A DNA stretch of 59,765 bases from Candidatus Eiseniibacteriota bacterium (GCA_043809585.1 JBDROZ010000109.1:1-59765), one strand, 5' to 3'; positions 3,422-26,382 are shown, numbered from the stretch's first letter. The notes: a model not told the origin generated them from the sequence alone. Numbers and translations are program-made.

Positions 3422-6400
3422 ATGACTATCTCGAACCATTGTCCCCTGTGCATGGAAACCGGCGAGGAATGGCCGGTTCGGCGTGAGGACCGTTTCTGCG
3501 GAAATTGCGGCAACCCCCTCGTTTCTTTCGTGCCACCCCCCGAGTTCTTCCTCCTTCTCTTGACAGACGACGGAGACAGGACGAGTGCCTTCCTGACCCT
3601 CTCCAACACCTCGACGACCCGCTTCGGCCCGGTGAATCAGGTTAAAGTGAAGTTCGAATGGAAGCCCGACCTCGAGAATGAGGTGGGCATCGAGTTCGGC
3701 GAAGAGCTCCTCGAATCGGGGGCGGAGATCGTTGTCGAGCCGGAGCAAGTCGTCCAACTCACCCTCTCTCCGTTGATGGAGCCGGAAGACTTCGCGGGAG
3801 AACGCGTCCATCGGATCCAGATCAGCACCGACGATCCGAACCGCAAGAGCTTCCAGGTCGATATCCTCATCTCCAAGACACCGCCCGTGCCCGAGTGGCT
3901 GACCGAGGAAAACGCGCCCGTGAGCGCCGGCGAGGTGGTCAAGATCGAAGCAGAGGTTTCGAAGGTTCGCGCCGGAGTGGTGACGCCCGCGATTGGACGG
4001 GCCGTGCTCCGAAACGGAGGGGGCGGCGCCCTGCTCGTCAAGGAGATCGAGGTGCCGACCGACTACGGCGCGTGGTTCAATGTCTCCTTCAAGGAAGGGG
4101 AAGGGATCCGGTCGGGGGATTCGCGGATCATCGAGTTCCAGGTGTCTCCTGAGAAGATCCCGAGAGGTATCTTCGACGGGCACATTTCTCTCGTTTTGAA
4201 GGCGGAGGGCGTGGAGCCCCACCCGTTCCGGGTCCGGGTCGTGATTCACCAACCCCCGGTGCTCGAGGTCGTGCTCCCCGAGTTTCAATCGTGGGAGGGA
4301 GGGGTGTCGCGCCTCGTATGCGCCCCTTACGGCCGGCAGGACTTCGAGGTCCAACTCCTGAACCGGGGGACGAAGCCGCTGAACGTGACCGGCGTCATCT
4401 GCGACAGCCCGTTCCTGCGGCTCTATCTCGGAGGAAACCTGCGGGTGAAGGAGAGAACACTCTCCGAGCCGATTCCCGTCACGCCTGGAAAGACGGAGAG
4501 GGCCTTCAAGCTGAGCTGCAATCTCGAGAGCCTCGTCCACGACCGGGACTACCCGGCGGAGATCGTATTCCTTTCTGATGCGGTGAACGCCGAACACCGG
4601 GTGCGACTGCTCTTTCACGTGAAGAGGAAGACCCTTGACACGAAGTTCTACCACGACTCGTACATTGGCGTGGACTTCGGAACCTCCAACTCCTGCGTGG
4701 CGGTCCGGCATGCCCAGGACGTTCGGAAGGGGATGGAGGAGGCGTTTCGCGTTCTCACGCTCACACCGGAGAGCGAGCTCACGGGCCACGACCCCGATCC
4801 GACCACGCTCCCTTCCATGATCTTCTTCCGTGAAACCGACGACCCCCTGATCGGCGAGGCGGCCAAGGGCATCGGGCTCGGGAAGGAGGAACGGCTTTTT
4901 CGCTCGTTCAAGCGAACGATCGGCATGATGGTCGAGCAGCAGGTCGGGGGAACGGTTTTCACCTCCGAGGACCTTGCCGAGATCATCTTCGGGAGCTTGA
5001 TCGATGCGGCGCTCCGGGATCTCGATCACTTTCCTACGCGAGTCGTTGCCACCTGTCCGGCTAACTTCTACCACTATCAAAGAGCATCAGTCCTCCGCGC
5101 CTGCCGGCGGGCTCTCTGCCGGCGCGCTCTTCGCGCCCACGCCGACCAGATGCGCACGGACCTGAGAATACTCGATGAGAGCCCGGAGGTGGGACGGCCA
5201 TTCCGCGAGTTCTTGGAGGAGAAGGCCGACGCTCGCGGACTTCTGGAGGAAGTGAGGGAACGGTTCCTCGCGATTCATCCGGGCATCGACTGGGACCTCG
5301 AGAGCACCGCCGACTGCATGCTGCTTCTCCTCTATCTGAGCACCTCCCGCCGGGAGCTGATCGACTTCGGCGACAAGGGGGGGAACGGGTCGAAGAAGAT
5401 CGCCGCAGAGCGGATCACCCGGGATCTGATCCGCAGTTTCTTCGATGGCATCGGTGTACTGGGCGACCTCGTCGCTTTCGTCAACACTCCGCAGGCCTCG
5501 CTCGTTCGAGAGGCGAAGAGCCTCGAGTTGCTGAACATCTTCGAAGATTTTTGTTTCGACGTCCTGAGAAGCCTTCAAATCGCCGACGTTCTCATCCTCG
5601 ACGAGCCCTCCGCGGCGGCGTACGCCTACGTACTTCACGAGTTCGGACGGCTCGAAAAGAACCCCGAAGGTGAGAGGGAGTACATCGTAGTCTATGATTT
5701 CGGAGGAGGGACGTTCGACGTTTCAGTGATGTCAATCGAGACGCGGAACGAGATCCCCCAGGTCGAGGTGATTCACACGGACGGCATCAACGAGCTCGGC
5801 GGAGACGATATCGATCACGAAATGATCAACTGGGTTCTCGAGCGAATCGACGTGCCGAAGGTGAACCGGGAGTACGTGGAGACGAACATCTACCGGTTGG
5901 ACGCCTTGATCCGGATGAAGGCGGGATCGCAGCAGGAAATTCAGGACCTCCGGGTAAACGTACGCCGCGCGAAGAAGGTGTTGAAGGACTGGGCCGAGGG
6001 GGCAAAGATCAACTTCTCTACCCTCTCGGCGGAGACCCTTCCGGAGATCCCCGCGAGATTCACTCTGGACGGCCTCGGTGTCGAGAGTGTAGACCTTCTC
6101 TTTCAACGCGAGGACTTCCACGGGGCGATCACGGGCAGCATCGAGAAGACGATCGAAAAGACTAGGGACGTTCTCGAGAGGGCGGCCGAAAAGGAGGCGA
6201 GAAGCGGCCGTGAATTCCGGCTCGCCCGTTTCGTCCTGGCGGGGAAATCGTCCCGGATCCCGCTAATCCGGAGCATGATTCTCCGGGACGGGAGCATGGG
6301 GATCACGGACGACTTGTTCTTCGCCGGATTCGGAAAGATGGAGAAGGCGTGTGTCGCCCGGGGCGCGGCGTATTACGGGTTTCAGCAGGCGGGCGAGACC

Positions 6401-6826: not shown

Positions 6827-6859
6827 GGACGTGTGGGGACCGGCAAGGAGAAGCCACCC

Positions 6860-8281
6860 ATGATTCTCGGCGCTGACTGGGGGTATCGGAGGGTCGCCTT
6901 CTCGGCGCTCTCTCGGGTGCTCGGGGCGAGGCCCGGCCACGTGACGGGCTACAACTCGAGCGAGTGGGCCGAGCCTTCCTGGTTCTCCTTCCATTCCGAT
7001 GCGACCCTCGGTTCGGCGGGGACGACCCCGGACATAGCGTTCGGCGCCGCCGCGCGCGCCGCCCTGGATGATCGAGATTTCCCGGCGAGGGCGGAAGCCG
7101 GGAAGTCGGGCCTCTGGCCGAGAGTGCTCCGCCACTTGGCGGGTAACGAGGAAAGGGCGCGACTCGCCTGCATGTATCTAATCGCGGAGGCATTCCGCCC
7201 GGCAATGGCGACGGTGAGGGCCGAGGTGCCCCTCCGCATCGCTGTGGGAGACGAGAGGCTTCCCGATGTCGGGGAGGCGCTCACCACGCTCTCGGCAGAG
7301 ATGAGCTGCGACGCCGTCGTGCTCCCCTCCTCCGTGGCCCATCTGGGCAACTTGGAGCTCCCGGACTCTCTCATGCGTTGCGCGGTGATCGACTGGGGAG
7401 GGGGTGCGCTCCGGATGGCGGGTCTCGAGACGGAACTTCCGGCGCCGGACATCAGGACGGTCCGGATCGTGGCCCGGGAGTCGTATCCAGGCCACTCCGT
7501 CGGCGAACTCGAATCCTCTCTCATGGCCTCGATCTGCCGAAAAGGGAGCGGACGGTGGGAGCCTTGGAAGTTTGCGGACACCCTGGACCATCTGTGGGGG
7601 GGGGCGGGGGCGTCCCGGCACGAGGGGGCGGACGCCACGGCGGCACGCGAGAAGATCGACCGGTTCTACTCGAAGTCGGCCTCCGTGTTCGAGAAGTTCG
7701 GACGTCGGCTTGGCCGGCGGTGGGACCGCGTCGACATCCTCGTCCTGACGGGAGGGGGCGCCCCGCTTCTCGAGAGGGGAGGGTGGCACGTCGGCTGGCC
7801 AGATCGGGACGAAACCGTGAGGCTGGAAGCGAGTCACGGCGCGGCCCGGGGCGCCGCGCTGCTCGGAACCGGACGACGGACGCAGTTGCAGATCGTGGAG
7901 GAGGGGGCTCTCTCGGTGATCGCGGATGGGTGTGAAGCCGTCCCCCTCTGGGGCGGGCGCGAAATCAACGGCCTCTCCTCTTCGGGGGAGGGACGATCCG
8001 CCTATTTGCCGCTCGGCGCGCTGGACCACACACCGGAGTACGTCGCCCTCCAATGGGGTTTGGGGAGGGAGAGTGGAGAGGGGCGAATCGTCGCCACCGT
8101 CCCCATCGATCGGATCGGAGGAGGCCGCCGTTCCGTTTGGGCGGGGGCCGACGCGAAATGTTTAGGTTCATCCTTGACCGGGCTATTCTGGATCCGGGAT
8201 CCCGAGAGCGGGCGGGAAAGTTCGTCCGGCTGGGAGATCGATCTCGGTCTCCGGGGATCCTCGATCCTGACACTTTCCTGA
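6860..8281 (+). CDS. Degenerate Hsp70/actin-like ATPase-fold protein
   Basis: ILGADWG, AVIDWGGG, LVLTGGGA and AARGAAL occur in Hsp70 order; AAGGAG RBS. Confidence 0.7.
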   Translation: MILGADWGYRRVAFSALSRVLGARPGHVTGYNSSEWAEPSWFSFHSDATLGSAGTTPDIAFGAAARAALDDRDFPARAEAGKSGLWPRVLRHLAGNEERARLACMYLIAEAFRPAMATVRAEVPLRIAVGDERLPDVGEALTTLSAEMSCDAVVLPSSVAHLGNLELPDSLMRCAVIDWGGGALRMAGLETELPAPDIRTVRIVARESYPGHSVGELESSLMASICRKGSGRWEPWKFADTLDHLWGGAGASRHEGADATAAREKIDRFYSKSASVFEKFGRRLGRRWDRVDILVLTGGGAPLLERGGWHVGWPDRDETVRLEASHGAARGAALLGTGRRTQLQIVEEGALSVIADGCEAVPLWGGREINGLSSSGEGRSAYLPLGALDHTPEYVALQWGLGRESGEGRIVATVPIDRIGGGRRSVWAGADAKCLGSSLTGLFWIRDPESGRESSSGWEIDLGLRGSSILTLS

Positions 8282-8307
8282 GCGGAACGAGGAGGCGGAA
8301 AGGGACC

Positions 8308-10269
8308 ATGGAATCGTTGATGCCTGCAAAGAGGGTTGCTCCGCCGAGCGCGCTCTGGAGATGCCTCGTCCTGGCGGTTTTCTTGGGTGTTCTGCCGGGG
8401 CTAGGGACGGCGCAAGACGAGGGCGGGGGCAACGCCTCGGCGGGGGTTGGCCAGGGGAAGGCGGCCCCGCCATGGTACGAACTGAAGGATTTCACTGCGG
8501 AAACTCAAGGGAACAAGATCGTAGTTGCGTGGACGAATCCCGTGAGTGAGCTGTTCAGTGAATCAAGGGCGTACATTTCCCAAGACTCGGAGGATCCCGA
8601 GAGCGGTGAGGTGCTCATCGGTGAGAAGGAATTGGAGGGAAATCCCGGCGCCCCCGGGGAGAAGATCCGCTTCGAGCACGAGATCGATCCTTCCAAGACC
8701 GTTTACTACTGGATTCAAGTCTACGATAACGACAATAGACCCTGGATAAGCAAGCGCGGCTCGAAACCGGCGAAATCGGGCACCGAACCGCACGAGGTGG
8801 GGGGTGCCCGGCCCACCCCCCCGCATGACGGGGGGTTCGTCCAAAAACCCCGGTCAAGACTTCAGAAGATCCTAACGTCCTTCACGGATCTTGTTGATTC
8901 CGTTCTGGCAGGGTGGAAAACGATCCTCGTGTTTCTCCTAGGGTCTTACTCCCTTCTCGCGACATATCCACTCGTCAGGGCTTACTTGGACGATGAGGAA
9001 AAGCTCACGTGGAATCGATTCGGCGATGACGGTAGGGGCAGGAAGAAGAACGCGTTTCCCCCATTTTGGACCTCCTCGGAGGTCTTGGCATACACGAAGG
9101 ACCTGGGCGGGGATCAAACCGAGATGAAGCGTCTCAAGCGCCGCCTGGCGGAGGCGGAGGAGAACAGTGCCCGAACCTTGGAAAGAAGGCTCGAAGAGGC
9201 GAGGGAGATGCACGCGGAGGAACTCGGCCGAGTCAATCGAGACTATGCCGCCGCCTCCGACCGACTGAACGGGACGATCGGTACACTCGAATCGGAGCTT
9301 GAGCGCGTCCGGGTGGAACTCGTCGCCAAGGAGGAGGCCCTTGCCGAGGTGGAAGGGAAGCTCTCCGAGACGTTGAAAGAGCTCCGACGGTCGCAGAAGG
9401 ATCGGGCGGGGCTGGCGGAGGAGAAGAGCCGGCTGGAGTCGAAGCTTCAAGCCATGGTCGCCGGCTTCTCGAAGGCACTCGGGCCTGAACTCTCGTCATC
9501 CCTCGACCGACTCCAGCTGCAGATTGTTCCCTTGGTCGTGGGCGATCCGGAGGGCGGAAGAGACGGAGGGGAGCGGTTGGAGAAGCTGACCGTCGTCGTG
9601 GGCAGTGTCCGGAACCTCGGCGCCTCCGTCGACCGGAGGGAGTGGACCGAGCTGATCGGAAAGGAAGGGGCGGGTCTGAAGCACCTGCCGGGCGCGATCC
9701 GGGAGCTGAGCGAGATCGCGGTGCAGACGGACAACAAGTCGGGAAATCTGTTCGGGTCAGGTACGAGGGGAAGCACCTTCGATTTCCCCGACCCGAGCGA
9801 CCCAGAGTTCGCGAAGAAGGTCGAGGCCTCCCGTTTCCAATCGCTCACCGCAGCGATCGTCGACAGTCTCGGCCGGGCGAAACGGATCGCGGAGGCGGGC
9901 GTCGACATCTCGGTCCTGGAGCAGCAGCTCCGCAAGTACATCCTGGACGAGGCGGCGTCTAAGTTCTTCGTCGCCGAGGCGGAAGCCCGCATGCAGGCGG
10001 CCGATCTCGGCCCGAGGCTGACCGAGAAGATCGGCGAACTCAAGGCCCAGCTCGTGAACTTGCTCAGGAAGGAGTACTCCCTCGATCCCCAAGAGATCAC
10101 GCCGGGCCAGCTCTTCAACGACAAGGAATTCCGCATCGCCGGATCGTCTGGGATCGAGCAGTACCCCACGGTGCGGCAGAACGGCATTGCCGAAGTCGTG
10201 ACGTGGGGCTACCGGCAGGCTGGATCCGACAAGGTCGTTCAAAAGGCGGAGGTCATCGTTCGGTCGTAA
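8308..10269 (+). CDS. Single-pass membrane protein: signal peptide, FN3-like domain, TM, coiled coil, C-terminal GrpE-like domain
   Basis: Signal LVLAVFLGVLPGLGTA; FTAE..IVVAWTNP..VYYWIQVYD; TM TILVFLLGSYSLLATYPLV; C-terminus PGQLFND..IAEVVTWGY..VVQKAEVIV. Confidence 0.75.
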   Translation: MESLMPAKRVAPPSALWRCLVLAVFLGVLPGLGTAQDEGGGNASAGVGQGKAAPPWYELKDFTAETQGNKIVVAWTNPVSELFSESRAYISQDSEDPESGEVLIGEKELEGNPGAPGEKIRFEHEIDPSKTVYYWIQVYDNDNRPWISKRGSKPAKSGTEPHEVGGARPTPPHDGGFVQKPRSRLQKILTSFTDLVDSVLAGWKTILVFLLGSYSLLATYPLVRAYLDDEEKLTWNRFGDDGRGRKKNAFPPFWTSSEVLAYTKDLGGDQTEMKRLKRRLAEAEENSARTLERRLEEAREMHAEELGRVNRDYAAASDRLNGTIGTLESELERVRVELVAKEEALAEVEGKLSETLKELRRSQKDRAGLAEEKSRLESKLQAMVAGFSKALGPELSSSLDRLQLQIVPLVVGDPEGGRDGGERLEKLTVVVGSVRNLGASVDRREWTELIGKEGAGLKHLPGAIRELSEIAVQTDNKSGNLFGSGTRGSTFDFPDPSDPEFAKKVEASRFQSLTAAIVDSLGRAKRIAEAGVDISVLEQQLRKYILDEAASKFFVAEAEARMQAADLGPRLTEKIGELKAQLVNLLRKEYSLDPQEITPGQLFNDKEFRIAGSSGIEQYPTVRQNGIAEVVTWGYRQAGSDKVVQKAEVIVRS

Positions 10270-10298
10270 GACGAGCCGAACGGAAGTGAGGCGGATCG

Positions 10299-11723: not shown

Positions 11724-11726
11724 GTT

Positions 11727-14877: not shown

Positions 14878-14880
14878 CCG

Positions 14881-18700: not shown

Positions 18701-19036
18701 CTGATCGCGGACATGAACCTCGCCGAGGCCGTGCAAACAAATCTGGAGGAGAGACTGTCTATTCTGAATGCGAATCCGAAGGCCAAGGCCGAACTGGGAA
18801 TCGTGATTCGTGGCTACATCGTCCCTGGAGGTGTTTTCGCCGAAAGAACCTCGACCGACGGAAGCGAAAAGCCCCGGACCGTGCAACCCATGGAATACCT
18901 TATCGTCCGTGAGTTGATCAATCGCTACTGGAAGGGTGTTGATTGGGACTCGATAGAGTATGAGGAAGCCGAGAAGAGCATTGCAGAGCGTACCGAACTC
19001 CGCGAGGGAGGATTGAGGGCGTTGAAAAGTGCTTGA
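15770..19036 (+). CDS. Tubulin/FtsZ-like GTPase (Tubulin_2 type) with long helical C-terminal region
   Basis: IIGLGGTG, LYLDTD, GAGQMRAYGRLAF and signature SVAGGTGGG; GGAGG RBS. Confidence 0.92.
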   Translation: MNETGTTKDKTRKAPAVIIGLGGTGAEVLLRVRRKFFEASATLSLEEFPIVRYLYLDTDEADKQIARYNQHLFNFKQSEQFMTTIDHWASFTHQLQDFSTLRKWWYEDQVDLLQPALNAGAGQMRAYGRLAFWHHAAAIRNAVGSAIDSAKSPASRKKMTDQGFTVTSERTEIYLVCSVAGGTGGGMLFDMGYLLRDISKGKLSINAFIVLPSSFLGIPEVKEEKVKANGYAALKELEYYCSRGLRKSVFDDKWQDNRPTSPIFQTSPFDRIFLFDANNEGNQSLAEHVARGGLTDMIADNIYLDYGLSKFAEEKRSVYVNHDQFLQGEYPWIHHDPVSGKDVLTEVWIKAFQSLGIAKIYVPIHRIKKACACRLWSKVFNLLGAGEFEGDVAKIRDGLLAKGDVPAHVGRRRIDERERKVDDFRAHLEKSTSEGKSLERVISERVLEIQMSIQRGDAEKESEERHEFLERKIKGLYDRLFVEPSKSKKDYQEWGEVFRQIELNRRNYEKELEKSLRKLTDNLMSDAEKGIGYASEVLRSFHSYFTHETHGYCHVFEDRIKSAEKFVEAASREYQARVLALQQHEAWGVMDGPFLKGSTIRYDIKMAGKAANDYFQAIFDRRILEASKEICEAMVEVIGESDKAEWTGLLGNLQKLKMNLDALADGMAIRERQFSEKEHDPVNRCIYEEEQLRDRYFPMALGLKKEDWKNKKVIEGACRDMAPRLLMDLEVTIDEVVRHGIKVKEIPEVADALGLDDFQIALISQSLRHFSKLDEVNVIDVFLEDVPAADQGGMIEELLDLALPWFQKDAQHVGSPEITSTVVGCHRENKPSHQAWWAQTSQSVKAKFPKLTEREMAEKDTIIFFSQMTGFPLCYGSSVRDLRTHYEELVRGDHDRLHISKDEIKYPDLVKLDEQAWMKLRRAKELFILGIATGVIRERKEPVAGTESQRTMYFYEYMEFGEKFQKDIGTVNTVIRQLIADMNLAEAVQTNLEERLSILNANPKAKAELGIVIRGYIVPGGVFAERTSTDGSEKPRTVQPMEYLIVRELINRYWKGVDWDSIEYEEAEKSIAERTELREGGLRALKSA

Positions 19037-20486
19037 TCGTAGGATCAGGAGCGTCGTAATCGGAGCGCTGGCGTGGAGCGCTCTGTGCTCTGCGCTCCCC
19101 GGACCGGCGTTCGGGGGCTCCCTATCCAGTCCGGTGGTTGTCCGGCTGAATCAGTTCGACGTCGTAAATCCCACCGAGGGCTTGGATCTCACGGAAGAAG
19201 AGATCACAGAGTTCTTGTGCGAAAAGCTGCGAAACCGGAGCGACTTCGAGCTTGTAATAGAGGCCCCTGAGTCTCTTTCCCTGATCGACTACGACCTACT
19301 GGTCACCGTTGAATGGCGGGAGCCCGGTCCGGAAGGCCATCACCTGGACCTCGATATGGACCTTCGGAATTCCCGCAAGGGCGAATCCGTGAAAAGCGAT
19401 CGGAAGGTCGACTTGTCTCTCACCGAAGGGCAGGAGGCGCTGGACCGTTTCGTGCGAGAATTGCGGGGCAGCCTGAGGATTCTATGCACGAACTATGAGA
19501 ACGCACGCGTGAGTTTCGATCGCCAGGTCGGGGTCGCGCCCTTCGACAGCGTGGGCATTCTCCTTGGCACGTATAACGTCAGCGTCTCCCATCCTCCAGA
19601 GGCGATCAAGGAGTCGCGTTTGGTTACGATAAGCAACGGATCCCGGATGACCGAGAGTTTTTCTCTGGAGGAGAGACCGACCCTCCTGCGGATTCGGACG
19701 ACGAACGGGGAAGGCACGGTCTACCTCAACGGGAGGTCGGTCTTCGACACATACAAGACGTACAAGAAGCAGGTGGTCGAGCTGAAAGCACGGCCCCGCG
19801 GGAAGGGAGCGACCCTCCGGAAGCGTTTGGTTCTGGAGAAGCATGAGGACTACGACATCGTCGTCGATCTCCGGCGCCGCACCGTAACGGGGAAGCATCC
19901 TCCAAAGGTGATCGGACCCCGGCGGCCCTTCCTTCACACGAGCGCCTACCTGGGAATCGGGTATTCCGTGGCGATCCCCGAGGACCCCGGGCTGGAGGAG
20001 AACTTCAAGGTTTTCCACAACCTATCCGTCGACGTGGGCGGGTGTCTCGGTCTCTTCGCCGGGCAGACCACGTTCTTCATCGGAATCCCCCAGAAGAACT
20101 TCAGCGGTCTGACGTTTTCGGACGGGGCGCAGGAGGAACAGGAGATCAAGTCTCTCTATAGGGACGGGATCAGCGTGGAAGGGCGGTTCATTCTGCCGCT
20201 CGGGCGAGTGGGGGACAACGCGGTGTATCCCTTCGGGGGAATCGGCTACATGTGGGCGTGGTTCATCGCCTCCGCGGACGAGTGGAGAGGAGTGGACGGG
20301 GAGTACCACGGGGCAGGCGACCCCGGGATCAAGGTCGAGTCGTTCTATCCGTTTTGGACGGCCGGATTGAACTTGGGCAGGTTCGCGGTTGCCGGCAGGG
20401 TCTCCATCCTGGACCCGGGCGAATACGAGTCCAATTGGCTCGAGTTCGGCCTCACGTGGAATCCCGTAGAGGAGATACGAGATTGA
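19029..20486 (+). CDS. Exported PEGA-domain protein with probable C-terminal outer-membrane beta-barrel
   Basis: Signal peptide; GSLRILCTN..LGTYNVSVS and TLLRIRT..GTVYLNG; C-terminal alternating strands YPFGGIGY..LEFGLTWN. Overlaps the tubulin stop codon. Confidence 0.7.
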   Translation: MLDRRIRSVVIGALAWSALCSALPGPAFGGSLSSPVVVRLNQFDVVNPTEGLDLTEEEITEFLCEKLRNRSDFELVIEAPESLSLIDYDLLVTVEWREPGPEGHHLDLDMDLRNSRKGESVKSDRKVDLSLTEGQEALDRFVRELRGSLRILCTNYENARVSFDRQVGVAPFDSVGILLGTYNVSVSHPPEAIKESRLVTISNGSRMTESFSLEERPTLLRIRTTNGEGTVYLNGRSVFDTYKTYKKQVVELKARPRGKGATLRKRLVLEKHEDYDIVVDLRRRTVTGKHPPKVIGPRRPFLHTSAYLGIGYSVAIPEDPGLEENFKVFHNLSVDVGGCLGLFAGQTTFFIGIPQKNFSGLTFSDGAQEEQEIKSLYRDGISVEGRFILPLGRVGDNAVYPFGGIGYMWAWFIASADEWRGVDGEYHGAGDPGIKVESFYPFWTAGLNLGRFAVAGRVSILDPGEYESNWLEFGLTWNPVEEIRD

Positions 20487-21028
20487 TGGTGAAGGCGAAA
20501 CCCGTCGTTCATCGGGGTGTCGTTGTACCTCTCTTCGTCATGTCGATCGCCGCGATTCTCTCTTGCGAGGGACTCGAGGACGGGAAACTCATCGCCCCCG
20601 CCCTGTTCGGATCTCTCGGGGAGACGGTCCATCTAGAAGCCTCACCGGGGATGGTCGTTCAGGAAGGAGGCAACAGCGGTGCGACGTGGATTCGATGCTC
20701 GCAGCAAGGGAGAATCGCACACCTTGAGGTGTACGTAGATCTCGTTCACGGGGATCTCGATGACATCGTTGTCCAGTTGGCCTCTCCCCAAGGAACGTCG
20801 GTCTACCTCCACTACTTCGACCACTCCTCAAGGGACCAGGGGTACTATTCGACATCGGATATCGCGGCCTGGTACGAGCGCGAGATGCCATGTCATACCA
20901 ACGGGGATCTACAGGCGTTTCGCGGGGAGCTGAGCTCGGGATTCTGGACCATTCGCGTGTACAACTACGACGAATACTGGGACGCCACCCTTTACGAGTG
21001 GCGTCTGGACATCACGCTGCACGACTGA
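20486..21028 (+). CDS. Lipoprotein with proprotein convertase P-domain
   Basis: Lipobox ILSC; VYVDLVH..DIVVQLASPQGT..L; LQAFRGE..SGFWTIRVYN..LYEWRL. ATG overlaps the upstream TGA. Confidence 0.85.
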   Translation: MVKAKPVVHRGVVVPLFVMSIAAILSCEGLEDGKLIAPALFGSLGETVHLEASPGMVVQEGGNSGATWIRCSQQGRIAHLEVYVDLVHGDLDDIVVQLASPQGTSVYLHYFDHSSRDQGYYSTSDIAAWYEREMPCHTNGDLQAFRGELSSGFWTIRVYNYDEYWDATLYEWRLDITLHD

Positions 21029-21056
21029 GCGGAAACTGAACCGAGGTTCTTCGTCA

Positions 21057-23905
21057 TTGGCGGTCCCCGTACCGACTCGAACGTTCTCTTCCCCCGCCGG
21101 ACGGGTTGACCAGCCTGGGGTGTCGTCACGGTCCGCTCTTCTCGCGACGGGTTTCCTTCTTCTCTGCGTCGGTGTCGCCCCGGCGCGTCCGTCCTCAGCA
21201 GGCTATCTTGATGGCGTCGCACTCCTCTCCCAGGGAGAATGGGCAGAAGCCGCGGACGCCTTCGACCGAGTGCTCGCATTTGATCCATCTCATGACCGGG
21301 CCCGGGCGGGTTACGCACGGGCCGTTGTAGAGGCCCACAGACGTTTCGGTACTCTCACGGACCGTCTCCCCGAGGCCGAGAGGAGGCTCGGGCTCGCACT
21401 CAAGGCGAACGAGAAGCCCGAATGGCATCTGCTGATGGGGGATCTTCTCGCCTGCCGCGCGGAGAAGGAGGTCGATCCGCGGGGAAACCTCGAACGGTAT
21501 CGGCCGGAAACGGTCCGGGGGGCCCTCTCGCTTTGGAGTCGGGCCGGAGAGGAGTTCCGAAAGGGCGGGCGGCCGGAAGAGGCCGAAGAGGCGGGGGTGG
21601 AGGTGCGGCGGCTATCGGCGTTCGTGGAGCGCAAGGCGCAGGCCGTCGCCGATCGGGTAGCCAGCCTGTTCGGTCGCTTCCGGGCCGGAGAGATCCTGAG
21701 TCGCGAAGACATCGACGGGGCGGACCGGGAAATCGCGGGGGGACTGAGGTACGCGCCCCATTCGGAGAGGCTTCTCGGCCTTCAGGCAAGCGTCGTTTCC
21801 GTTCGCAAGGAGGCCCTGGCACGCGCATGGGCAAAGGTACTCGAAGCCCGGAGGGACAGCCGTTGGGGCGATTCGATCGTGTGGGCGGAGTGGGTTCTCG
21901 ATATCGATCCGGGGGACCTCCGGGCCCTTGAGGCTGTTCGGGAGGGGCGTTTCGAAGAGATAGCGCAGACAGCGGTCACTCTCTTGGAGAGGTGCGAGCA
22001 GGGCGAGAATCCCGGCGGGGTGGAGTTCCGCTCGGCCTATCGGGATCTCGGCGCGGCCCGATCGGAGATGCCCGATAATCGCCGCGCGGACAGCCTCGAT
22101 GCGGCACTCAAAGCTGCATTAGAGGGGACCACAAGGCTGCTGATCGGTCTGATGGACGGTGCGCTCGAGGGAAAGCGCTGGGAGGAGGGTCTGGGGTACT
22201 CCGATCGTGTTCTCGATCTCGAGCCGGAGGTCGTGAGAGCCGTTGCCGGGGGCAATCGGGCGCGATCATACCTCGAGGTAATCCGGAGAGAGCTCGCAGA
22301 TATCAAGACCGCCGAGAAGACGGGCGACATGGTGCTCCTTCGGAGAAGCCTGGCCTGGCTCATCGCGGGCACGTCGGACCCGAATTCGTACGTGGATGGG
22401 GCGATTGCGGCGAATCAGGGCATCTTCGAGCAGTCGATCAAGAACAGGGACTGGGAGAAGGCGGAAGACTGCATCGAATTCGGTCTATCCAACGGCGACG
22501 ATACCGGGAACATGGAGAGTCGCCTCCTCCGGAATCGGTATCTCTACCATCTCCTGGGCGCCGCCGCGATCGTCCTCCTCCTCGCTGCCGGGGCCGTGGT
22601 CCTCGCGATCCGGTTCTCTCGAAAGCTGCGGGATAGACTGCTCGTGCGCCGCGTTCGGAAGAGAATCGACAACGGGGACCTCGAGAGGGCTTTCGGCGTG
22701 GTCTCGAAAGCGACGAATTCGGCGTCCAAGGGGCGGGCGGACCTGCTCGGCGGGCTTTGGTGTGATCTCCTGGAGTGCGCAGGGACAGAGGAAATCCTCG
22801 AGAGAGCCGGCGCCCGGAAACGGGTGACGATGTTCCTCGACCGGCTCTTCGGGGACACGTCGAACACAGGGATGAAGGTGCGACTGGCGAAGGGCTCGAT
22901 TCGAGTCGGCTGGCCATCCGTCTGGTGGAAGGAGGGGCTCGCCGCATTCCGGGAGAGGCGGGACTCCCTCCGGGTCCTCCAAGAGATGTGGGACTATCCG
23001 TTCAGATGTTTCAGGGTGGGGAGGGGACGCCCCTCCGGAGTCCCGGGAAGCCCGAGGACAGGATCGTGCTCTTCGAGGAGATGGCGAATGACGTGGAGGC
23101 ATGGCTCGGCCGTTTCGAGCAGAGGACCGGCGACCTGGAGGCCACGATCGGACCGTGCCTCCTGGACCCGGACGCCACCGCCGTGAGGCGGGTCTTGGCG
23201 GCATCCTACGCCCGGGAAGGGGACTGGAGGAGGGCCTCCCCCTATCTGTTGCCTTTCTTCGAGAGGGTCGAGGAATGGAAGAAGGCCGAGGAGCTCGGCG
23301 ACTTTCAGAGGAGCTGGTCCGCGCACGTCGCGGCCCGATCCTGGGCCCTTACCCGTGACGAAGCCGGGCCGCTCGCGGAGCTCTTGGCCCGGGGCCTCGT
23401 GGAGGAGGATCATCGTGAGGACTGCAGGGGCCGGTTGTACGAGTATTTGGACGGCCTGACAGAATACATGGCCGCGGAGTCAATCCGGATTCTCGAGCGC
23501 ATCTTCCGAACCGGAGCCCTTCCCCTCGATGGCCGCCTCCGGCTCGGTCGCGCGTACCGGATTCGGGGAGAGCGGCTGGAGGAAGAGAGCGGTCTCTTCC
23601 AGGACACGGTCACCCTCTCTCGGGATCTGGATCTGTGGCTCTACTACCTTGAGGTCATCGGTCGCCATGGAGCCGTCGGTCATCTCGAAGAGACGATTGT
23701 GAAGGGAGACGGGGACTGCGGGATTGCGGTGGTTCGGCTCGAGGGGACCGTCGCCCGTATCCTGGTCGACTGCAAGACCGCCACGACGCGGCTCGGCCCG
23801 CTCCCTAGTGGATCCCCCGCGGCCGAGGAGAATCCGCAGGCGGCGGGCGCGGTCCTCCCTGGCTCCGACGAGCATAACGGGAACCGTGGCCCCGGGGTAC
23901 CCTGA
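21057..23905 (+). CDS. TPR-like/TM/cytoplasmic helical protein, split by an apparent 1-nt frameshift near 22998-23003
   Basis: ORF 21057-23186 aligns by eye with paralog 23929-26382 up to WDYP. Similarity continues in the 22775-23905 frame (QMFQG..EEMANDVEAW vs EILQG..EAMADDVRAW). Confidence 0.75.
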
Positions 23906-23928
23906 TTCGGGTATACTGATCCCTCCGG

Positions 23929-26382
23929 ATGAACGAGGCCGGGATCGAAAGGAAACCGCACGACATGGGTATTCAGCGGGTCATGGATCGCCCACCTGCC
24001 GTCGGTATGCCGGCCGCGTCGGTTTCACTCGTTTTCGTCTTACTCGGTCTGCTCACTGCTATCTCGGACGCCGGACCCGCTCTCGCCCAGACCCCGACGA
24101 CCATGTACATCGAGGCCAACGCGGTCATGGGCGGAGGGCGCTACGAGGACGCAGCCGGTCTTTTCGAACAGATCCTCCGAATCGACTCCGGTCATCACCG
24201 CGCCCAGGCGGGGTACGCGAGCGCGGTCTTCAGCGCCCACTCGTTTCACGGCCGCATGACAGACCGCCTCCCTCTCGCCGCGGAGAGGATCGCCTCCGCG
24301 ATTCAGTCGGAGGCCCGTCCAGAACGTTGGAAGCTCTTGGGCGATATCCAAAAGGCGCGTGCGCTAGGCATCTGGAATCCGAATCAAGCCCCGGACACGG
24401 TTTCGCCGGGTTCGCTTCAGGCGGCCCGCGGATTGTGGGCTCGAGCGGCGACCGCTTACAGGCAGGCGGGAAAATCCTTGGACGGGGGCGAGACCGAACG
24501 GGTTTCGAATCGGATCGACACGTACCTCGCCGATCGCTACGAATCCGCTTTGCTCCCGGGACGGAATCTCCTCGGCAGATGCGCGAGCGGATATCTCCCC
24601 GTCCGCAGCGAGTTCAATGAGTGCCGGGAATCGGCCGAGGCGGGCCGTCCCTTCCTGCCGGACGACCCGCGGCTAGATCGCCTCGTCTCGGACCTGGCGG
24701 CGGCACGGCGGCGAACGCTCGACGAGTTGGCTTCCCTGGCGAACCGGGCGTCCGAAGGAAAGCACTGGGAGGAACTCAAGAGGCGCGCTGATCATATGCT
24801 CGATTTGGATCGGTCGGATCAGCGGGGATTCGGGTTTCTCGCGAAGGCCGAGGAGTACCTGCGCCTCATCGATCAGAATGGGCAGGATCTCCGGACGGCC
24901 GAGAGCAGCGGCGACCACGAGCTTCTGCGTCGGACAGCCGACTGGCTGATTGAGAATACCGACCGGCCGGAGGAGTTCATCTCCAAGGTAATGGCCGCGA
25001 ACGAAGGGATCTTCCGGGACGCCATCGGAACCAAGAACTGGGAGAAGGCAGAAGGGTGCCTCTCGTTTTCCGAGCGGTACGGCTGGGACATGGGCAGGAT
25101 GAAGGTCGAGCTGTTCTTCTATCGACATCTCTACTATCTGGTCGGCGCCACGATTGCGGTTTCGGCTCTCGTCTTCGCTGTGCTCTACCTTCTTGCGAAG
25201 AGGCGACGGCGGAAGAAGGAGGACGAACTGGTCAAGGGCGCCGATGAGCACATTCTCTCTCTCGACCTTGCTTCCGCCTGGAGATCGGTCTCGGAGGCGT
25301 GGGAAACGGATGGGGAGGGGAGAGGCGACCGGCTTACAGTGAGGCTCTGCCAGATCGTCGAGAGTCCGGGATTCCCCGAGTGGGCGGTCCTGGACGACAA
25401 CAAGGAAGGGATCCTCGCCTTTCTTTCGGAGGGATTCGAGGCGGCTAGTGATCCGGAACTGAAGGTTCGAGCCGCCCGGGCCCGGGGAAACGCCGGTTGG
25501 TCGGAGGACTCGTGGAGCGAGTCGCTGTCCATCCTTCGCAGATGGAGAGACGCCTACCCGGTTATCGACGGTCTCTGGCGTTTGCCTCTCGAGATCCTTC
25601 AGGGCCAGGGGCCGTCCTGGCTCTGGTATCCCGACGACGGGGAGCAAAGGCGCGCGCTCCACGAGGCCATGGCCGACGACGTACGCGCCTGGGTCCGCAG
25701 ATCTCCGAAAACGGCGGCGGATCTCGGGACCGTCATTGAGAAAGCCCTGACCGACGCGTCGGCGGGGGCCGTGAGATGGGCCTACGGACTCGAGTTTGTG
25801 AGTCTGGAGATGTGGTCGGAAGCGGAGCATCATTTGCAGGGGTTCCTCTACGGTCGTGAGGAGTGGCCCGATGAAGACGGACTGGACGAGCTCCGCGTCA
25901 CGTGGGCCCGGCGCCTCACGTCGAAACCGGAACCCCTGTCGGATGAGGAGGCTGCGCTCTTCGCGCGTGTTCTCTCCAGTGCTCGCGCCGACCGGGAGGA
26001 GCGGGCCTCGTGGCATCTCCGAGTCGCCGCCTATCTAAACGGGCTCGGATCGGAGAGGCGGGCTGGAGAGACGATCTCGCTTCTCCTCGAACCGTTTCGG
26101 CGGGAGTCCCTTCCTCCGGAGGGGATCGAGATGATTGCCGCGGCTCTTCACGAGAGGGCCGCATGCGCGGAAGGAGAGTTGGAAGTCATTGCCGCGGCCC
26201 TCAGGGTACGGTTCTCCGAAGAGCACTTCCTCTACCTCGCGCGCCTGACGGCGCGATTCGAGGGCTGGGGGGCTCTGGAAGAACTCGTCCGGTCGGAGGT
26301 GGAAAGGCACTCGGTCGATGTGGTGAATCTGGAAAGCGCAACGCGCCAGGAGCTTGCAGCATCCCGATCCGCGAATCCCTGA
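23929..26382 (+). CDS. TPR-like/TM/cytoplasmic helical protein, paralog of the preceding gene
   Basis: Signal peptide; FEQILRIDSGHHRAQAGY; TM LYYLVGATIAVSALVFAVLYLLA followed by KRRRRKK. Start may be later (e.g. 24007). Confidence 0.8.
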   Translation: MNEAGIERKPHDMGIQRVMDRPPAVGMPAASVSLVFVLLGLLTAISDAGPALAQTPTTMYIEANAVMGGGRYEDAAGLFEQILRIDSGHHRAQAGYASAVFSAHSFHGRMTDRLPLAAERIASAIQSEARPERWKLLGDIQKARALGIWNPNQAPDTVSPGSLQAARGLWARAATAYRQAGKSLDGGETERVSNRIDTYLADRYESALLPGRNLLGRCASGYLPVRSEFNECRESAEAGRPFLPDDPRLDRLVSDLAAARRRTLDELASLANRASEGKHWEELKRRADHMLDLDRSDQRGFGFLAKAEEYLRLIDQNGQDLRTAESSGDHELLRRTADWLIENTDRPEEFISKVMAANEGIFRDAIGTKNWEKAEGCLSFSERYGWDMGRMKVELFFYRHLYYLVGATIAVSALVFAVLYLLAKRRRRKKEDELVKGADEHILSLDLASAWRSVSEAWETDGEGRGDRLTVRLCQIVESPGFPEWAVLDDNKEGILAFLSEGFEAASDPELKVRAARARGNAGWSEDSWSESLSILRRWRDAYPVIDGLWRLPLEILQGQGPSWLWYPDDGEQRRALHEAMADDVRAWVRRSPKTAADLGTVIEKALTDASAGAVRWAYGLEFVSLEMWSEAEHHLQGFLYGREEWPDEDGLDELRVTWARRLTSKPEPLSDEEAALFARVLSSARADREERASWHLRVAAYLNGLGSERRAGETISLLLEPFRRESLPPEGIEMIAAALHERAACAEGELEVIAAALRVRFSEEHFLYLARLTARFEGWGALEELVRSEVERHSVDVVNLESATRQELAASRSANP

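What the first reader, a model, noticed from the sequence alone, without database searches (positions are those of the whole stretch)
3422..26382. 12-gene trans-envelope Hsp70-GrpE-vWA-tubulin cluster: candidate undescribed system
Seen: twelve co-directional genes with overlaps or gaps of at most about 70 nt. Predicted cytoplasmic parts are an Hsp70 fusion, a degenerate Hsp70, a Zn-ribbon propeller, an Ig-like protein and a tubulin-like GTPase. Inner-membrane parts are TM-GrpE, vWA-TM, a 3-TM protein and two TPR-TM proteins. Outer parts are a lipoprotein and a PEGA/barrel protein. Known: Tubulin_2 GTPases co-occur with vWA proteins in putative NTP-dependent conflict/stress loci. Inference: here they are coupled to a private Hsp70 pair and nucleotide-exchange factor and span both membranes, and I see none of the P-loop GTPase, MoxR or kinase partners. 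This could be a sensing/defence, contact-dependent or surface-assembly machine.
Basis: partly seen in the sequence, partly recalled or inferred. Interest (0 to 1): 0.9.

Follow-up and report, generated by a model that had tools for sequence, protein, structure and literature searches.

The report
Tubulin-like, Hsp70, GrpE, vWA envelope cluster
Twelve neighbouring genes encode a membrane-spanning set of proteins built around a tubulin-like GTPase, its own Hsp70 chaperone pair with a membrane-anchored GrpE-like partner, and an outward-facing vWA protein; it is a rare, never-tested elaboration of a gene module predicted by bioinformatics in 2010.

Summary
Window 3422-26382 carries twelve co-directional genes, with gaps of at most 70 nt. 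One of the two TPR-TM genes has a frameshift near 22990.

Nearly every domain call was verified:
- Hsp70 fusion (zinc ribbon, then NBD plus SBD-beta)
- a second, strongly diverged Hsp70
- a two-TM GrpE-like protein
- a zinc-ribbon BamB-like propeller
- a MIDAS-vWA single-pass protein
- a signal-peptide/3-TM protein
- a Tubulin_2 GTPase
- a PEGA protein
- a P-domain lipoprotein
- two TPR-TM paralogues

Only the "Ig-like" g4 and the outer-membrane placement stay unverified.

The core (Hsp70 fusion, GrpE-like, propeller, vWA, Tubulin_2) recurs in 25 of 113 Tubulin_2 loci, mostly Acidobacteriota plus other phyla. Metagenome locus L090 keeps nine of the genes in the same order.

It is not wholly undescribed. 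It belongs to the FtsZl1/Tubulin_2-vWA class (Makarova and Koonin 2010). It also merges the tubulin-vWA and Hsp70-GrpE "themes" that Kaur et al. (2020) tied to DO-GTPase/GAP1, and both of those are absent here. No PADLOC system matches.

This scan has noted the same broad class before on other DNA (26 notes, at least 22 genomes).

Function is untested. I favour an envelope-triggered tubulin-like assembly that is reset by a private Hsp70 cycle. Verdict: new variant of a known kind.

The parts
3318..3346 (+). sigma-70-like promoter candidate (TTGACA, 17 nt spacer, GATCAT, TG before the second hexamer), about 75 nt upstream of g1
   Evidence: 1 site found against 0.3 expected in shuffles. A consensus match only.
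3422..6826 (+). g1: 1134 aa. Zinc ribbon, then a beta-rich region of about 360 aa, then Hsp70 NBD (with an insertion of about 170 aa) plus SBD-beta. No helical lid.
   Evidence: Pfam HSP70 1.4e-29. NCBIfam DnaK 1.4e-32, far below the equivalog cut-off. Family profile against DnaK 2.6e-76, covering DnaK residues 4 to about 490. Phosphate and adenosine motifs located at residues 415, 758 and 939. Invariant Cys at 7, 10, 26 and 29.
6833..8281 (+). g2: 482 aa, a strongly diverged second Hsp70 (NBD plus a beta C-terminal part). The family consensus lacks the glycine-rich phosphate loops.
   Evidence: No Pfam hit. Profile search found 63 representatives in 1.84 billion proteins. The 41-sequence alignment against the g1 family gives hhalign probability 97.1%, E 6.1e-11, and DnaK 3.2e-10. 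ESM Atlas Hsp70 leads score 0.93. The AF2 model was unusable at pLDDT 42.
8308..10269 (+). g3: 653 aa with an N-terminal hydrophobic segment, a periplasmic domain of about 170 aa, a second TM at about residue 195, a cytoplasmic coiled coil and a GrpE-like C-terminal domain.
   Evidence: Hydropathy. Alignment A3 has a conserved C-terminal block. Pfam GrpE hits 9 of 11 members, not the window's own copy alone. PDB GrpE 4ani_A scores E 0.0015. The mechanical ORF starts at 8053.
10299..11723 (+). g4: 474 aa, no TM, family unknown. This is a variable slot: L090 holds an unrelated protein at the same position.
   Evidence: No Pfam hit. ESM Atlas ASH/HYDIN-type Ig leads score only 0.77-0.81. No similarity to the L090 slot protein or to the g1 family.
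11727..13061 (+). g5: 444 aa, a double zinc ribbon plus a BamB/PQQ-like beta-propeller, with no signal peptide.
   Evidence: Pfam DZR 1.6e-4. Conserved Cys residues. Family profile against BamB 1e-12 to 3e-15 and against designed propellers 1.5e-31.
13132..14877 (+). g6: 581 aa with a signal peptide, a periplasmic vWA domain with an intact MIDAS site, a beta-rich region, a TM segment at about residues 456-493 and a cytoplasmic tail of about 90 aa.
14881..15708 (+). g7: 275 aa with an N-terminal hydrophobic segment, a periplasmic domain of about 150 aa and three TM helices.
   Evidence: Hydropathy. Orthologues sit directly upstream of Tubulin_2 in 13 loci.
15770..19036 (+). g8: 1088 aa Tubulin_2 (FtsZl1) GTPase with a long helical region.
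   Evidence: Pfam Tubulin_2 3.6e-61. Invariant glycine-rich loops G20-G25 and S178-G186. AF2 model pLDDT 85.1, pTM 0.75. Foldseek CetZ1, gamma-tubulin, TubZ and FtsZ from 2e-4. VIA-align CetZ Z 24.1 (325 of 342 aligned), tubulins Z 21-22, FtsZ Z 19.3.
19029..20486 (+). g9: 485 aa with a signal peptide, PEGA-type domains and a Gly/aromatic-rich C-terminal region of about 190 aa (putative outer-membrane barrel, not verified).
   Evidence: Pfam PEGA 1.3e-3. The L090 orthologue is 27-31% identical and scores PEGA 2.3e-20. The word-index search found no relative other than itself.
20486..21028 (+). g10: 180 aa putative lipoprotein with a proprotein-convertase P-domain.
   Evidence: Pfam P_proprotein 9.6e-12. 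Hydrophobic N-terminus ending in Cys. Not found in L090.
21057..23905 (+). g11: a TPR-TM protein, paralogue of g12, interrupted by a -1 frame change near 22985-22995 (ORFs 21057-23186 and 22775-23905).
   Evidence: BLASTP to g12 gives 2e-51 for the first ORF and 2e-21 for the second, meeting at g12 residues about 552-561. The site is not covered by the public contigs laid on it.
23929..26382 (+). g12: 817 aa with an N-terminal hydrophobic segment, periplasmic TPR, a TM at about residue 400 and a cytoplasmic helical domain.
   Evidence: Pfam TPR-S 7.2e-4 and TPR_19 2.3e-3. Hydropathy. Weak collinear match across the TM to the L090 TPR-TM-Sel1 protein, E 0.004.

Best explanation
What it is. This is an operon-like, horizontally acquired module of the FtsZl1 (Pfam Tubulin_2)-vWA class. 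It belongs to a sub-class in which the tubulin-like GTPase is wired to a private Hsp70 system.

Shown here: the parts list and their membrane topology by hydropathy.
- Facing the periplasm are a MIDAS-vWA protein (g6), the ectodomains of g3 and g7, the TPR parts of g11 and g12, and a PEGA protein and a P-domain lipoprotein (g9, g10).

Inferred mechanism.
1. The outward-facing vWA/TPR/PEGA array binds an envelope or foreign ligand.
2. The single-pass and 3-TM proteins pass this across the inner membrane.
3. The tubulin-like protein then assembles, driven by GTP, on their cytoplasmic tails.
4. The Hsp70 pair, held at the membrane by its own nucleotide-exchange factor, remodels or takes apart that assembly and so resets it. 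No J-domain protein is encoded, so the fused N-terminal arm and the zinc-ribbon propeller would have to supply substrate targeting.

Biological role. I lean to envelope surveillance or conflict (anti-invader) over housekeeping membrane remodelling.
For: Parts.

Linkage.
- Of 113 Tubulin_2 loci, 25 carry a g1-like Hsp70 fusion within 10 kb, on the same strand in 24. In one of them, L020, the hit is only a 1e-9 fragment.
- 12 loci carry an HMM-detectable GrpE-like gene next to the Hsp70 gene.
- By eye, the same C-terminal block ends the first or second ORF after the Hsp70 gene in 9 of 9 loci of the downstream arrangement that have sequence there. Pfam GrpE hit 4 further ORFs in the accessory census.
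- 20 loci have a g5-like propeller at E < 1e-20.
- The Hsp70 gene sits either about 6 kb upstream or directly downstream of Tubulin_2, so the linkage survives rearrangement.
- L090 keeps nine genes in order at 23-37% identity.
- Fusions: one Tubulin_2 protein ends in a GrpE domain (P0092) and five carry a double zinc ribbon (P0092 C-terminus).

Accessory and mobile character.
- GC is 0.58-0.66 over window 1-26000, against 0.66-0.72 in 15 of the 16 later 2-kb windows.
- No orthologue was found in 40 related genomes. Three of them match only the GTPase domain.
- The periphery varies between loci: TPR, PEGA, trypsin-like peptidases, FGE-sulfatase, extra vWA and MotA/ExbB among 114 accessory ORFs.

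Conflict lean.
- The genome's second Tubulin_2-vWA locus abuts Cmr2, Cmr3 and RAMP genes.
- L070's module abuts type I-C cas genes.
- An Azospirillum plasmid Tubulin_2 gene sits among caspase, OmpA and PEGA genes.
- Kaur et al. read tubulin/Hsp70/vWA sets as conflict systems (PMC7159879, passages).
Against: - No step of the mechanism is shown. There is no expression, interaction, polymerisation or phenotype data.
- No recognisable effector (nuclease, TIR, caspase, pore-former or peptidase) lies in the window's cluster.
- No PADLOC family matches, with 10 of 13 ORFs scanned.
- Only 1 of the 25 related loci had cas genes among its accessory ORFs.
- The downstream flank is heme biosynthesis, not a defence island.
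- The window's own g3 does not reach Pfam GrpE by itself.
- g2 may be inactive.
- One TPR-TM gene is frameshifted, so the system may be decaying.
- Full-length Tubulin_2 proteins also occur as solo genes, in Ignavibacteria and cyanobacteria, so the GTPase does not need these partners.
- That the twelve genes form one transcript is inferred from spacing only.
Confidence: 0.45

Rival explanations
1. Housekeeping-type membrane remodelling or vesicle and surface-layer biogenesis. The tubulin-like polymer would bend or organise the inner membrane, as Makarova and Koonin proposed for FtsZl1 operons. The Hsp70/GrpE set would recycle the polymer, and the PEGA, TPR and vWA proteins would tether it to the wall and outer membrane. 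No invader would be involved.
For: - The published prediction for the class (PMC2875224, section 6).
- Many membrane and periplasmic structural domains (PEGA, TPR, P-domain) and no effector in the cluster.
- A housekeeping flank.
- No PADLOC match.
Against: - The distribution is patchy and the module is absent from 40 related genomes.
- GC is lower than in the rest of the contig.
- The periphery is variable and lineage-specific, and related loci include peptidases and an FGE-sulfatase domain.
- A core cell-biology function would be expected to be vertically conserved.
Confidence: 0.27
2. A dedicated chaperone-assisted export or assembly pathway. The membrane-tethered Hsp70/GrpE pair and the propeller would hold and hand over specific client proteins (g9, g10, TPR proteins or an unlinked cargo) for insertion into the envelope. 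Tubulin_2 would act as a scaffold.
For: - g1 keeps a substrate-binding beta domain.
- A BamB-like propeller fold is present.
- The predicted outer parts are encoded downstream in the same run.
Against: - There is no translocon, secretin, ABC or Sec-like component in the cluster.
- The g5 propeller has no signal peptide, so it is not a periplasmic BamB analogue.
- g9 and g10 are not part of the conserved core. PEGA was seen in 2 of 114 accessory ORFs, and g10 is absent from L090.
Confidence: 0.1
3. Not one system. A conserved core module (g1-g8) would merely lie next to unrelated envelope genes (g9-g12) transcribed in the same direction, and the 'trans-envelope' picture would be an artefact of adjacency.
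For: - g10 is not found in L090, and g11/g12 have only a weak collinear counterpart there, E 0.004.
- My HMMs from g9-g12 found nothing in the 80 genome loci.
- One of the TPR genes is frameshifted.
Against: - The g8/g9 and g9/g10 reading frames overlap by 8 and 1 nt, and the remaining gaps are 23-28 nt.
- L090 has a PEGA protein and a TPR-TM protein at the same positions after Tubulin_2.
- TPR and PEGA recur among accessory ORFs of related loci and beside a plasmid Tubulin_2 gene.
Confidence: 0.12

Closest known systems
FtsZl1 (Pfam Tubulin_2)-vWA predicted membrane-remodelling operons (Makarova and Koonin 2010, Biol Direct 5:33, PMC2875224; outline, section 6 and passages read)
   Same: - The signature protein has an N-terminal FtsZ/tubulin-like domain, then a long helical region and a C-terminal part.
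- A neighbouring vWA protein has an intact MIDAS site and a signal peptide and TM segment.
- Many membrane proteins of unknown family are in the operon.
- The distribution is patchy.
   Different: - The paper's frequent partners (a diverged P-loop GTPase, protein kinases, OmpA-family proteins) are absent here.
- The main text has no occurrence of Hsp70, DnaK, GrpE or zinc. Its supplementary tables could not be seen and may list such neighbours.
- The paper found no tubulin-type C-terminal domain. My model aligns to nearly whole CetZ and tubulin chains.
DO-GTPase/GAP1-N2 conflict systems with 'tubulin + vWA' or 'Hsp70 + GrpE (+ second Hsp70) + DnaJ/TPR' themes (Kaur, Burroughs, Iyer, Aravind 2020, eLife 9:e52696, PMC7159879; passages read)
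   Same: - The accessory parts are the same: tubulin homologue, membrane vWA with an extracellular vWA domain, Hsp70, GrpE, an extra Hsp70-only protein, TPR and zinc ribbons.
- The proposed logic is the same: NTP-dependent assemblies at the membrane.
   Different: - The defining core (DO-GTPase pair plus GAP1) is not found in the cluster or in the whole genome.
- The paper describes the tubulin and Hsp70 themes as non-overlapping and mainly in Firmicutes and Actinobacteria. Here both are in one cluster.
- Here the organism encodes outer-membrane-type parts.
[quoted passage not shown]
DnaK-DnaJ-GrpE chaperone cycle
   Same: - g1 has an Hsp70 NBD with intact phosphate and adenosine motifs plus SBD-beta.
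- The g3 family ends in a GrpE-type domain.
   Different: - No J-domain protein is in the cluster.
- No helical lid was aligned.
- g1 is far below the NCBIfam DnaK cut-off, at 113 against 648 bits.
- The GrpE-like protein has two TM segments and a periplasmic domain.
- There is a second Hsp70 with degenerate loops.
CetZ, tubulin, TubZ and FtsZ cytomotive GTPases (solved structures 3zid, 4b45, 9f6v, 3cb2, 4xcq, 2vaw)
   Same: The g8 model shares the fold: Z 24.1 to 19.3 with 290-367 residues aligned, and Foldseek E from 2e-4.
   Different: - Sequence identity is only 10-16%.
- The aligned residues span model positions 13 to about 900. This suggests that a helical insertion of about 400 residues splits the fold, but I could not check it domain by domain.
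- About 180 further C-terminal residues are unmatched.

Membership tests
FtsZl1/Tubulin_2-vWA operon class (Makarova and Koonin 2010) | FtsZl1-type protein: N-terminal FtsZ/tubulin-like GTPase domain followed by long helical regions | tested here: met
   Pfam Tubulin_2 3.6e-61 over residues 17-379. AF2 model pLDDT 85. CetZ and tubulin fold matches.
FtsZl1/Tubulin_2-vWA operon class (Makarova and Koonin 2010) | vWA-domain protein with a MIDAS motif in the same predicted operon | tested here: met
   g6 lies two genes upstream of g8. DxSxS, T and D are conserved in 25 sequences. Integrin I-domain 3.3e-5. The window's own copy does not reach a Pfam vWA model alone.
FtsZl1/Tubulin_2-vWA operon class (Makarova and Koonin 2010) | Frequent (not obligatory) partners: a diverged P-loop GTPase, a protein kinase, OmpA-family proteins | tested here: not met
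   None was found in the 13 ORFs at Pfam E <= 0.01. The paper calls these frequent, not universal.
DO-GTPase/GAP1-N2 systems (Kaur et al. 2020) | One or two DO-GTPase genes | tested here: not met
   PF19993 and PF19975 have no match in the whole genome, which is 97.5% complete. The PF19975 control rang in no control genome, so that half is weaker.
DO-GTPase/GAP1-N2 systems (Kaur et al. 2020) | GAP1 protein (GAP1-N2, GAP1-M) | tested here: not met
   PF20013 and PF20014 have no match in the whole genome. GAP1-C was not searched.
DO-GTPase/GAP1-N2 systems (Kaur et al. 2020) | FNIII-repeat component | not tested
   No fn3 family was reported by Pfam at E <= 0.01. The periplasmic domain of g3 was not examined further.
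DnaK/DnaJ/GrpE chaperone machine | Hsp70 with NBD and substrate-binding domain | tested here: met
   The g1 family profile aligns to DnaK residues 4 to about 490 at 2.6e-76. The lid is not aligned.
DnaK/DnaJ/GrpE chaperone machine | GrpE nucleotide-exchange factor | tested here: inconclusive
   Met at the family level: Pfam GrpE in 9 of 11 aligned orthologues and PDB GrpE at E 0.0015. The window's g3 alone gives no GrpE hit at E <= 1. Exchange activity is not testable here.
DnaK/DnaJ/GrpE chaperone machine | J-domain co-chaperone | tested here: not met
   No DnaJ family was found in the 13 ORFs at Pfam E <= 0.01. The rest of the genome was not searched.
Known anti-phage defence systems (PADLOC-DB 2.0) | Match of the component proteins to a system's models | tested here: not met
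   10 of 13 ORFs were scanned (g10 and both g11 ORFs were not). Only coiled-coil or Hsp70-type noise appeared, at E 6e-4 to 8e-3.
MotAB/Zorya-type stator-coupled tubulin-Hsp70 cassettes (earlier notes of this scan) | MotA/ExbB-type channel and OmpA/MotB-type anchor in the cluster | tested here: not met
   No MotA_ExbB or OmpA family was found in the 13 ORFs. MotA_ExbB occurs in 2 of 114 accessory ORFs of related loci.

The most novel reading that the evidence does not exclude
This would be a self-contained trans-envelope immune or contact-sensing machine of a kind not yet studied. A periplasmic MIDAS-vWA/TPR/PEGA receptor array would trigger membrane-proximal polymerisation of a tubulin-fold GTPase whose fold is split by a large helical insertion. 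A private, membrane-tethered Hsp70 / pseudo-Hsp70 / GrpE cycle, working without a J-protein and without the DO-GTPase/GAP1 switch, would set the threshold and reset the polymer. That would make it a prokaryotic counterpart of chaperone-driven uncoating of a cytoskeletal lattice, used for defence.
Probability: 0.25. Interest if true: 0.85.

Novelty: new variant of a known kind. Interest (0 to 1): 0.6.

Why it matters
FtsZl1/Tubulin_2 proteins are among the most diverged members of the tubulin superfamily, and none has been studied at the bench. This locus, with its roughly 25 relatives among the 113 loci examined, gives a defined and testable parts list. A tubulin-like GTPase is genetically tied to its own Hsp70, a second diverged Hsp70 and a membrane-anchored GrpE-like factor.

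If the link is functional, it would be the first bacterial case of a dedicated Hsp70 cycle acting on a tubulin-fold assembly. It would also show that the tubulin and Hsp70 'themes' of predicted conflict systems can work without their supposed GTPase switch.

The structural model also suggests that FtsZl1 keeps a complete tubulin fold. That bears on the open question from 2010 of whether these proteins form filaments.

Tried and rejected
- Complex prediction on g1 (405-1010) with g3 (430-653), using my own alignments: verdict 'no answer', score 0.00, controls not run. It says nothing either way.
- AF2 model of g2 from a 6-sequence alignment: pLDDT 42, unusable, so no fold search was made. A first 6-sequence profile gave hhalign probability only 17% and no PDB hit at E <= 10. 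BLASTP of g2 against g1 was not significant. The 41-sequence alignment later resolved the question.
- g4: no Pfam hit, no similarity to the L090 slot protein and none to the g1 family. The Atlas's own model of it has pLDDT 0.45. I did not fold it.
- g9: the word-index search returned only itself. The outer-membrane barrel idea stays untested.
- Sequencing runs: 3 DNA runs kept as contigs, from one study, holding 0.06-0.21 of the sampled words. No RNA holder is listed. The laid contigs, at depth about 3, do not cover 22919-23726, so the g11 frameshift could not be checked.
- Terminator scan at 26200-26600: nothing found.
- tRNA scan of the window: none.
- Upstream ORFs 640-3144: no Pfam family.
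- Plasmid search with g8: 11 records matching only the GTPase domain, and none covering 80% of the query. The Azospirillum plasmid locus is a different variant.
- Phage and E. coli collections were not searched.
- Literature searches found no paper on a tubulin-Hsp70-GrpE-vWA module beyond the two cited. Supplements are closed, so the additional files of PMC2875224 and the source data of PMC7159879 may list such neighbourhoods.
- I rejected a programmed frameshift for g11. By eye there is no slippery heptamer at the site.
- The VIA-align helical matches to g8 residues 436-713 (alpha-catenin, BAR, PspA; Z 7.5-8.3) are below the tool's stated noise level for helical bundles.


Full report

Yes. 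Searches list a continuous run of + strand ORFs from 3422 to 26382. I take the g3 start at 8308 and the g10 start at 20486, where the signal-peptide-like segments begin. The mechanical ORFs start at 8053 and 20252. With those starts the eleven junctions are 6, 26, 29, 3, 70, 3, 61, -8, -1, 28 and 23 nt.

A sigma-70-like site lies at 3318-3346. The simple scan found no terminator after g12. That the run is a single transcript is therefore inferred from spacing only.

The window is a whole contig (C109) of a 4.24-Mb, 123-contig, 97.5%-complete assembly, so only 3.4 kb upstream is known. GC is 0.58-0.66 in the thirteen 2-kb windows up to 26000. It is 0.66-0.72 in 15 of the 16 windows after that. 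The downstream flank encodes an amine-oxidase-family flavoprotein (protoporphyrinogen-oxidase-like by my reading), a HemN-type radical SAM enzyme and a class-III aminotransferase. The cluster therefore looks like an insertion into ordinary chromosome.

**2. The parts**

- **g1 (Hsp70 fusion).** It is an Hsp70: Pfam 1.4e-29. A 15-sequence family profile aligns to DnaK residues 4 to about 490 at 2.6e-76. That covers the nucleotide-binding domain and the beta substrate-binding domain but not the lid. The phosphate-1, phosphate-2 and adenosine motifs are present. The N-terminus has four invariant cysteines, followed by about 360 beta-rich residues.
- **g2 (second Hsp70).** This gene resisted direct tests. 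A profile search of 1.84 billion representatives found 63 relatives. A 41-sequence alignment then matched the g1 family at hhalign probability 97.1% (E 6.1e-11, 374 columns) and DnaK at 3.2e-10. The family consensus lacks the glycine-rich phosphate loops, so 'degenerate Hsp70' is right.
- **g3 (GrpE-like).** It has two hydrophobic segments. It aligns with ten positional orthologues that share a conserved C-terminal block. Pfam GrpE hits 9 of those 11 proteins, best 2.3e-10, though not the window's own copy alone. The profile hits the solved GrpE 4ani_A at E 0.0015.
- **g5 (propeller).** It has a double zinc ribbon and a BamB/PQQ-type propeller.
- **g6 (vWA).** Its 25-sequence family keeps the MIDAS residues, hits integrin and TRAP I-domains at 3.3e-5 to 2e-3, and reaches Pfam vWA models in a minority of members. 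A signal peptide and a TM segment near residue 456 put the vWA domain outside the cytoplasm.
- **g7.** It has an N-terminal hydrophobic segment and three TM helices.
- **g8 (Tubulin_2).** Pfam 3.6e-61.
- **g9 (PEGA).** The PEGA hit is weak, but its L090 orthologue scores 2.3e-20.
- **g10.** It has a P-domain after a lipoprotein-like N-terminus.
- **g11 and g12 (TPR-TM).** These are paralogues. g11 is broken by a -1 frame change near 22985-22995. Public contigs do not cover the site, so at about 3x depth a sequencing error and a true pseudogene are both possible.
- **g4.** It remains unassigned.

No P-loop GTPase, MoxR, kinase, OmpA, MotA or J-domain family appears in any of the 13 ORFs at Pfam E <= 0.01.

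**3. The tubulin-like protein**

An AF2 model from a 26-sequence alignment has pLDDT 85.1 and pTM 0.75. All top Foldseek matches are CetZ, gamma-, alpha- and beta-tubulin, TubZ and FtsZ, from E 2e-4.

The Foldseek-independent aligner gives these matches:

| Match | Z | Aligned residues |
|---|---|---|
| CetZ | 24.1 | 325 of 342 |
| Asgard tubulin | 22.2 | – |
| gamma-tubulin | 21.8 | – |
| BtubA | 21.4 | – |
| TubZ | 20.8 | – |
| FtsZ | 19.3 | – |

The next unrelated fold scores Z 8.7. In most of these rows the aligned residues run from model position 13 to about 893-912. Nearly whole target chains are aligned, so the C-terminal tubulin domain may be formed after a helical insertion of about 400 residues. 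The tool gives only first and last positions, so this is a lead and not a result.

It matters because Makarova and Koonin found no tubulin-type C-terminal domain in FtsZl1 and left open whether these proteins make filaments (PMC2875224, passages).

**4. Co-conservation**

None of 40 related genomes has an orthologue. Three match only the GTPase domain, at E 6.5e-16 to 1.9e-8. The phylum is thinly sampled: 8 genomes of the same family and 1 of the same class.

In the protein database g8 has 116 relatives at E <= 1e-10 among 7999 candidates scored. One is 73% identical, three are 33-35% identical, and the rest are at most 28% over the full length.

I fetched 33 more from metagenomes. I then searched their six-frame ORFs with profiles. 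Of the 113 loci:
- all have Tubulin_2, by construction
- 55 have a g6-like vWA gene
- 25 have a g1-like Hsp70 fusion; in L020 this is only a fragment
- 12 have an HMM-detectable GrpE-like gene
- 5 have a g2-like gene

A g5-like propeller at E < 1e-20 is in 20 loci, and a g7-like gene is in 13.

The Hsp70 gene lies either about 6 kb upstream, as here, or directly downstream of Tubulin_2. In 9 of 9 downstream-type loci with sequence beyond the Hsp70 gene, the first or second following ORF ends in the same GrpE-type block. I judged this by eye. Pfam GrpE hit 4 such ORFs.

By record title the carriers are mostly Acidobacteriota. Others are Alpha- and Deltaproteobacteria, Eremiobacterota-type and unclassified MAGs.

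L090 (33% identity in g8) keeps g1, g2, g3, an unrelated gene in the g4 slot, g5, g6, g7, g8 and a PEGA protein. A TPR-TM-Sel1 protein follows that is weakly collinear with g12.

By contrast, the full-length Tubulin_2 genes of Ignavibacteria and cyanobacteria stand alone in unrelated contexts.

Domain fusions point the same way. One Tubulin_2 protein ends in a GrpE domain and five carry a double zinc ribbon.

**5. What varies**

I scanned 114 non-core, co-directional ORFs from the 25 loci. Pfam found:

| Family | ORFs (of 114) |
|---|---|
| zinc-ribbon proteins | 7 |
| TPR | 5-6 |
| trypsin-like peptidases | 3 |
| CarboxypepD_reg | 3 |
| extra vWA | 3 |
| FGE-sulfatase | 2 |
| PEGA | 2 |
| MotA/ExbB | 2 |

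PADLOC hit only the protease domains and the cas genes of one locus, L070 (Cas3, Cas5d and Csd1 confirmed).

The window's own genome has a second, shorter Tubulin_2-vWA locus on contig C91. It abuts Cmr2, Cmr3 and two RAMP genes and a DEAD/MZB helicase. A mobilizable Azospirillum plasmid carries a Tubulin_2 gene among caspase, OmpA, PEGA and DUF4384 genes.

**6. How it probably works**

Shown: the parts list, their hydropathy-based topology and their genetic linkage.

Inferred: the outward-facing vWA/TPR/PEGA proteins bind something at the envelope. The single-pass and 3-TM proteins couple this to the cytoplasm. The tubulin-like GTPase assembles at the membrane. The Hsp70, helped by a probably inactive paralogue and by an exchange factor fixed to the membrane, remodels or dismantles the assembly.

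No J-protein is encoded. Targeting would therefore have to come from the fused N-terminal arm of g1, from g4 or g5, or from the host's DnaJ.

As recalled background, not from any call here: Hsc70-driven uncoating of clathrin is the nearest functional analogy.

I lean to a conflict or envelope-surveillance role for four reasons: the patchy, apparently transferred distribution; the variable periphery; the protease, FGE-sulfatase and caspase neighbours in relatives; and two CRISPR-adjacent cases. The lean is modest. The window's cluster has no recognisable effector, no PADLOC match and a housekeeping flank.

**7. Comparison with what is known**

The locus meets the two defining features of the FtsZl1-vWA class of Makarova and Koonin (2010) but lacks their frequent GTPase, kinase and OmpA partners. 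Their main text does not mention Hsp70, DnaK or GrpE, and I could not see their supplements.

Kaur et al. (2020) describe DO-GTPase/GAP1-N2 systems with three non-overlapping themes, mainly in Firmicutes and Actinobacteria. One theme is tubulin plus vWA proteins. Another is Hsp70, GrpE, sometimes a second Hsp70-only protein, and DnaJ- or TPR-fused partners. The window joins these two themes. It has no DO-GTPase1, DO-GTPase2, GAP1-N2 or GAP1-M anywhere in the genome. It is therefore not a member of that family, although it may work like one.

Six literature searches found nothing closer.

This scan has recorded the broad tubulin-Hsp70-vWA class before on other DNA: 26 notes in at least 22 genomes. 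At least two of the eight shown have membrane GrpE-like partners. Those notes are unchecked leads. My census was made independently of them.

**8. Verdict**

The finding is a real, rare and conserved module, and it is a new variant of a predicted, untested class rather than a categorically new system.

Noticed in passing
G000 contig C91, locus L121 821-18999 (minus strand): The same genome has a second Tubulin_2 gene (967 aa) with a g6-like vWA gene next to it. They lie directly beside type III-B CRISPR-Cas genes (Cmr2/Cas10, Cmr3, two RAMPs) and a 1185-aa DEAD/MZB helicase.
   Followed up: partly
window 22985-22995: A -1 frame change splits the first TPR-TM gene. There is no slippery heptamer by eye. 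Public contigs of the three holder runs do not cover the site, so an assembly error and a pseudogene cannot be told apart.
   Followed up: partly
model of window 15770-19036: Structural alignments to CetZ, tubulin and TubZ cover nearly whole target chains but span model residues 13 to about 900. This suggests a complete tubulin fold interrupted by a helical insertion of about 400 residues, contrary to the 2010 view that FtsZl1 lacks a tubulin-type C-terminal domain.
   Followed up: partly
L070 13350-17917: In one related locus the Tubulin_2-Hsp70-GrpE-like module is followed at once by type I-C cas genes (Cas3, Cas5d, Csd1).
   Followed up: yes
L124 (Azospirillum sp. TSA2s plasmid p2, NZ_CP039644.1 175561-198592): A mobilizable plasmid of a cultured Azospirillum carries a Tubulin_2 gene among three caspase-family genes and OmpA, PEGA and DUF4384 genes. 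This is a different FtsZl1 variant in a culturable host.
   Followed up: no
proteins P0092, P0033, P0034, P0037, P0042, P0045: Natural fusions exist: Tubulin_2 with a C-terminal GrpE domain (one protein) and with a double zinc ribbon (five proteins).
   Followed up: partly
L026, L058 (and other Ignavibacteria and cyanobacterial loci): Full-length Tubulin_2 proteins of about 1100 aa, 25-27% identical to g8, stand as solo genes among unrelated housekeeping genes, without vWA or Hsp70 partners.
   Followed up: partly
window 1-3421: The low-GC stretch reaches the contig start. It holds small ORFs with no Pfam family, including a secreted-looking 192-aa protein (724-1302, minus strand) and a 171-aa protein (2282-2797, minus strand) divergent from g1.
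   Followed up: partly
L013, L024, L027, L037 downstream of Tubulin_2: Acidobacterial versions carry arrays of paralogous small proteins made of an N-terminal zinc ribbon, one TM and a variable outer domain. They look like interchangeable receptors.
   Followed up: no
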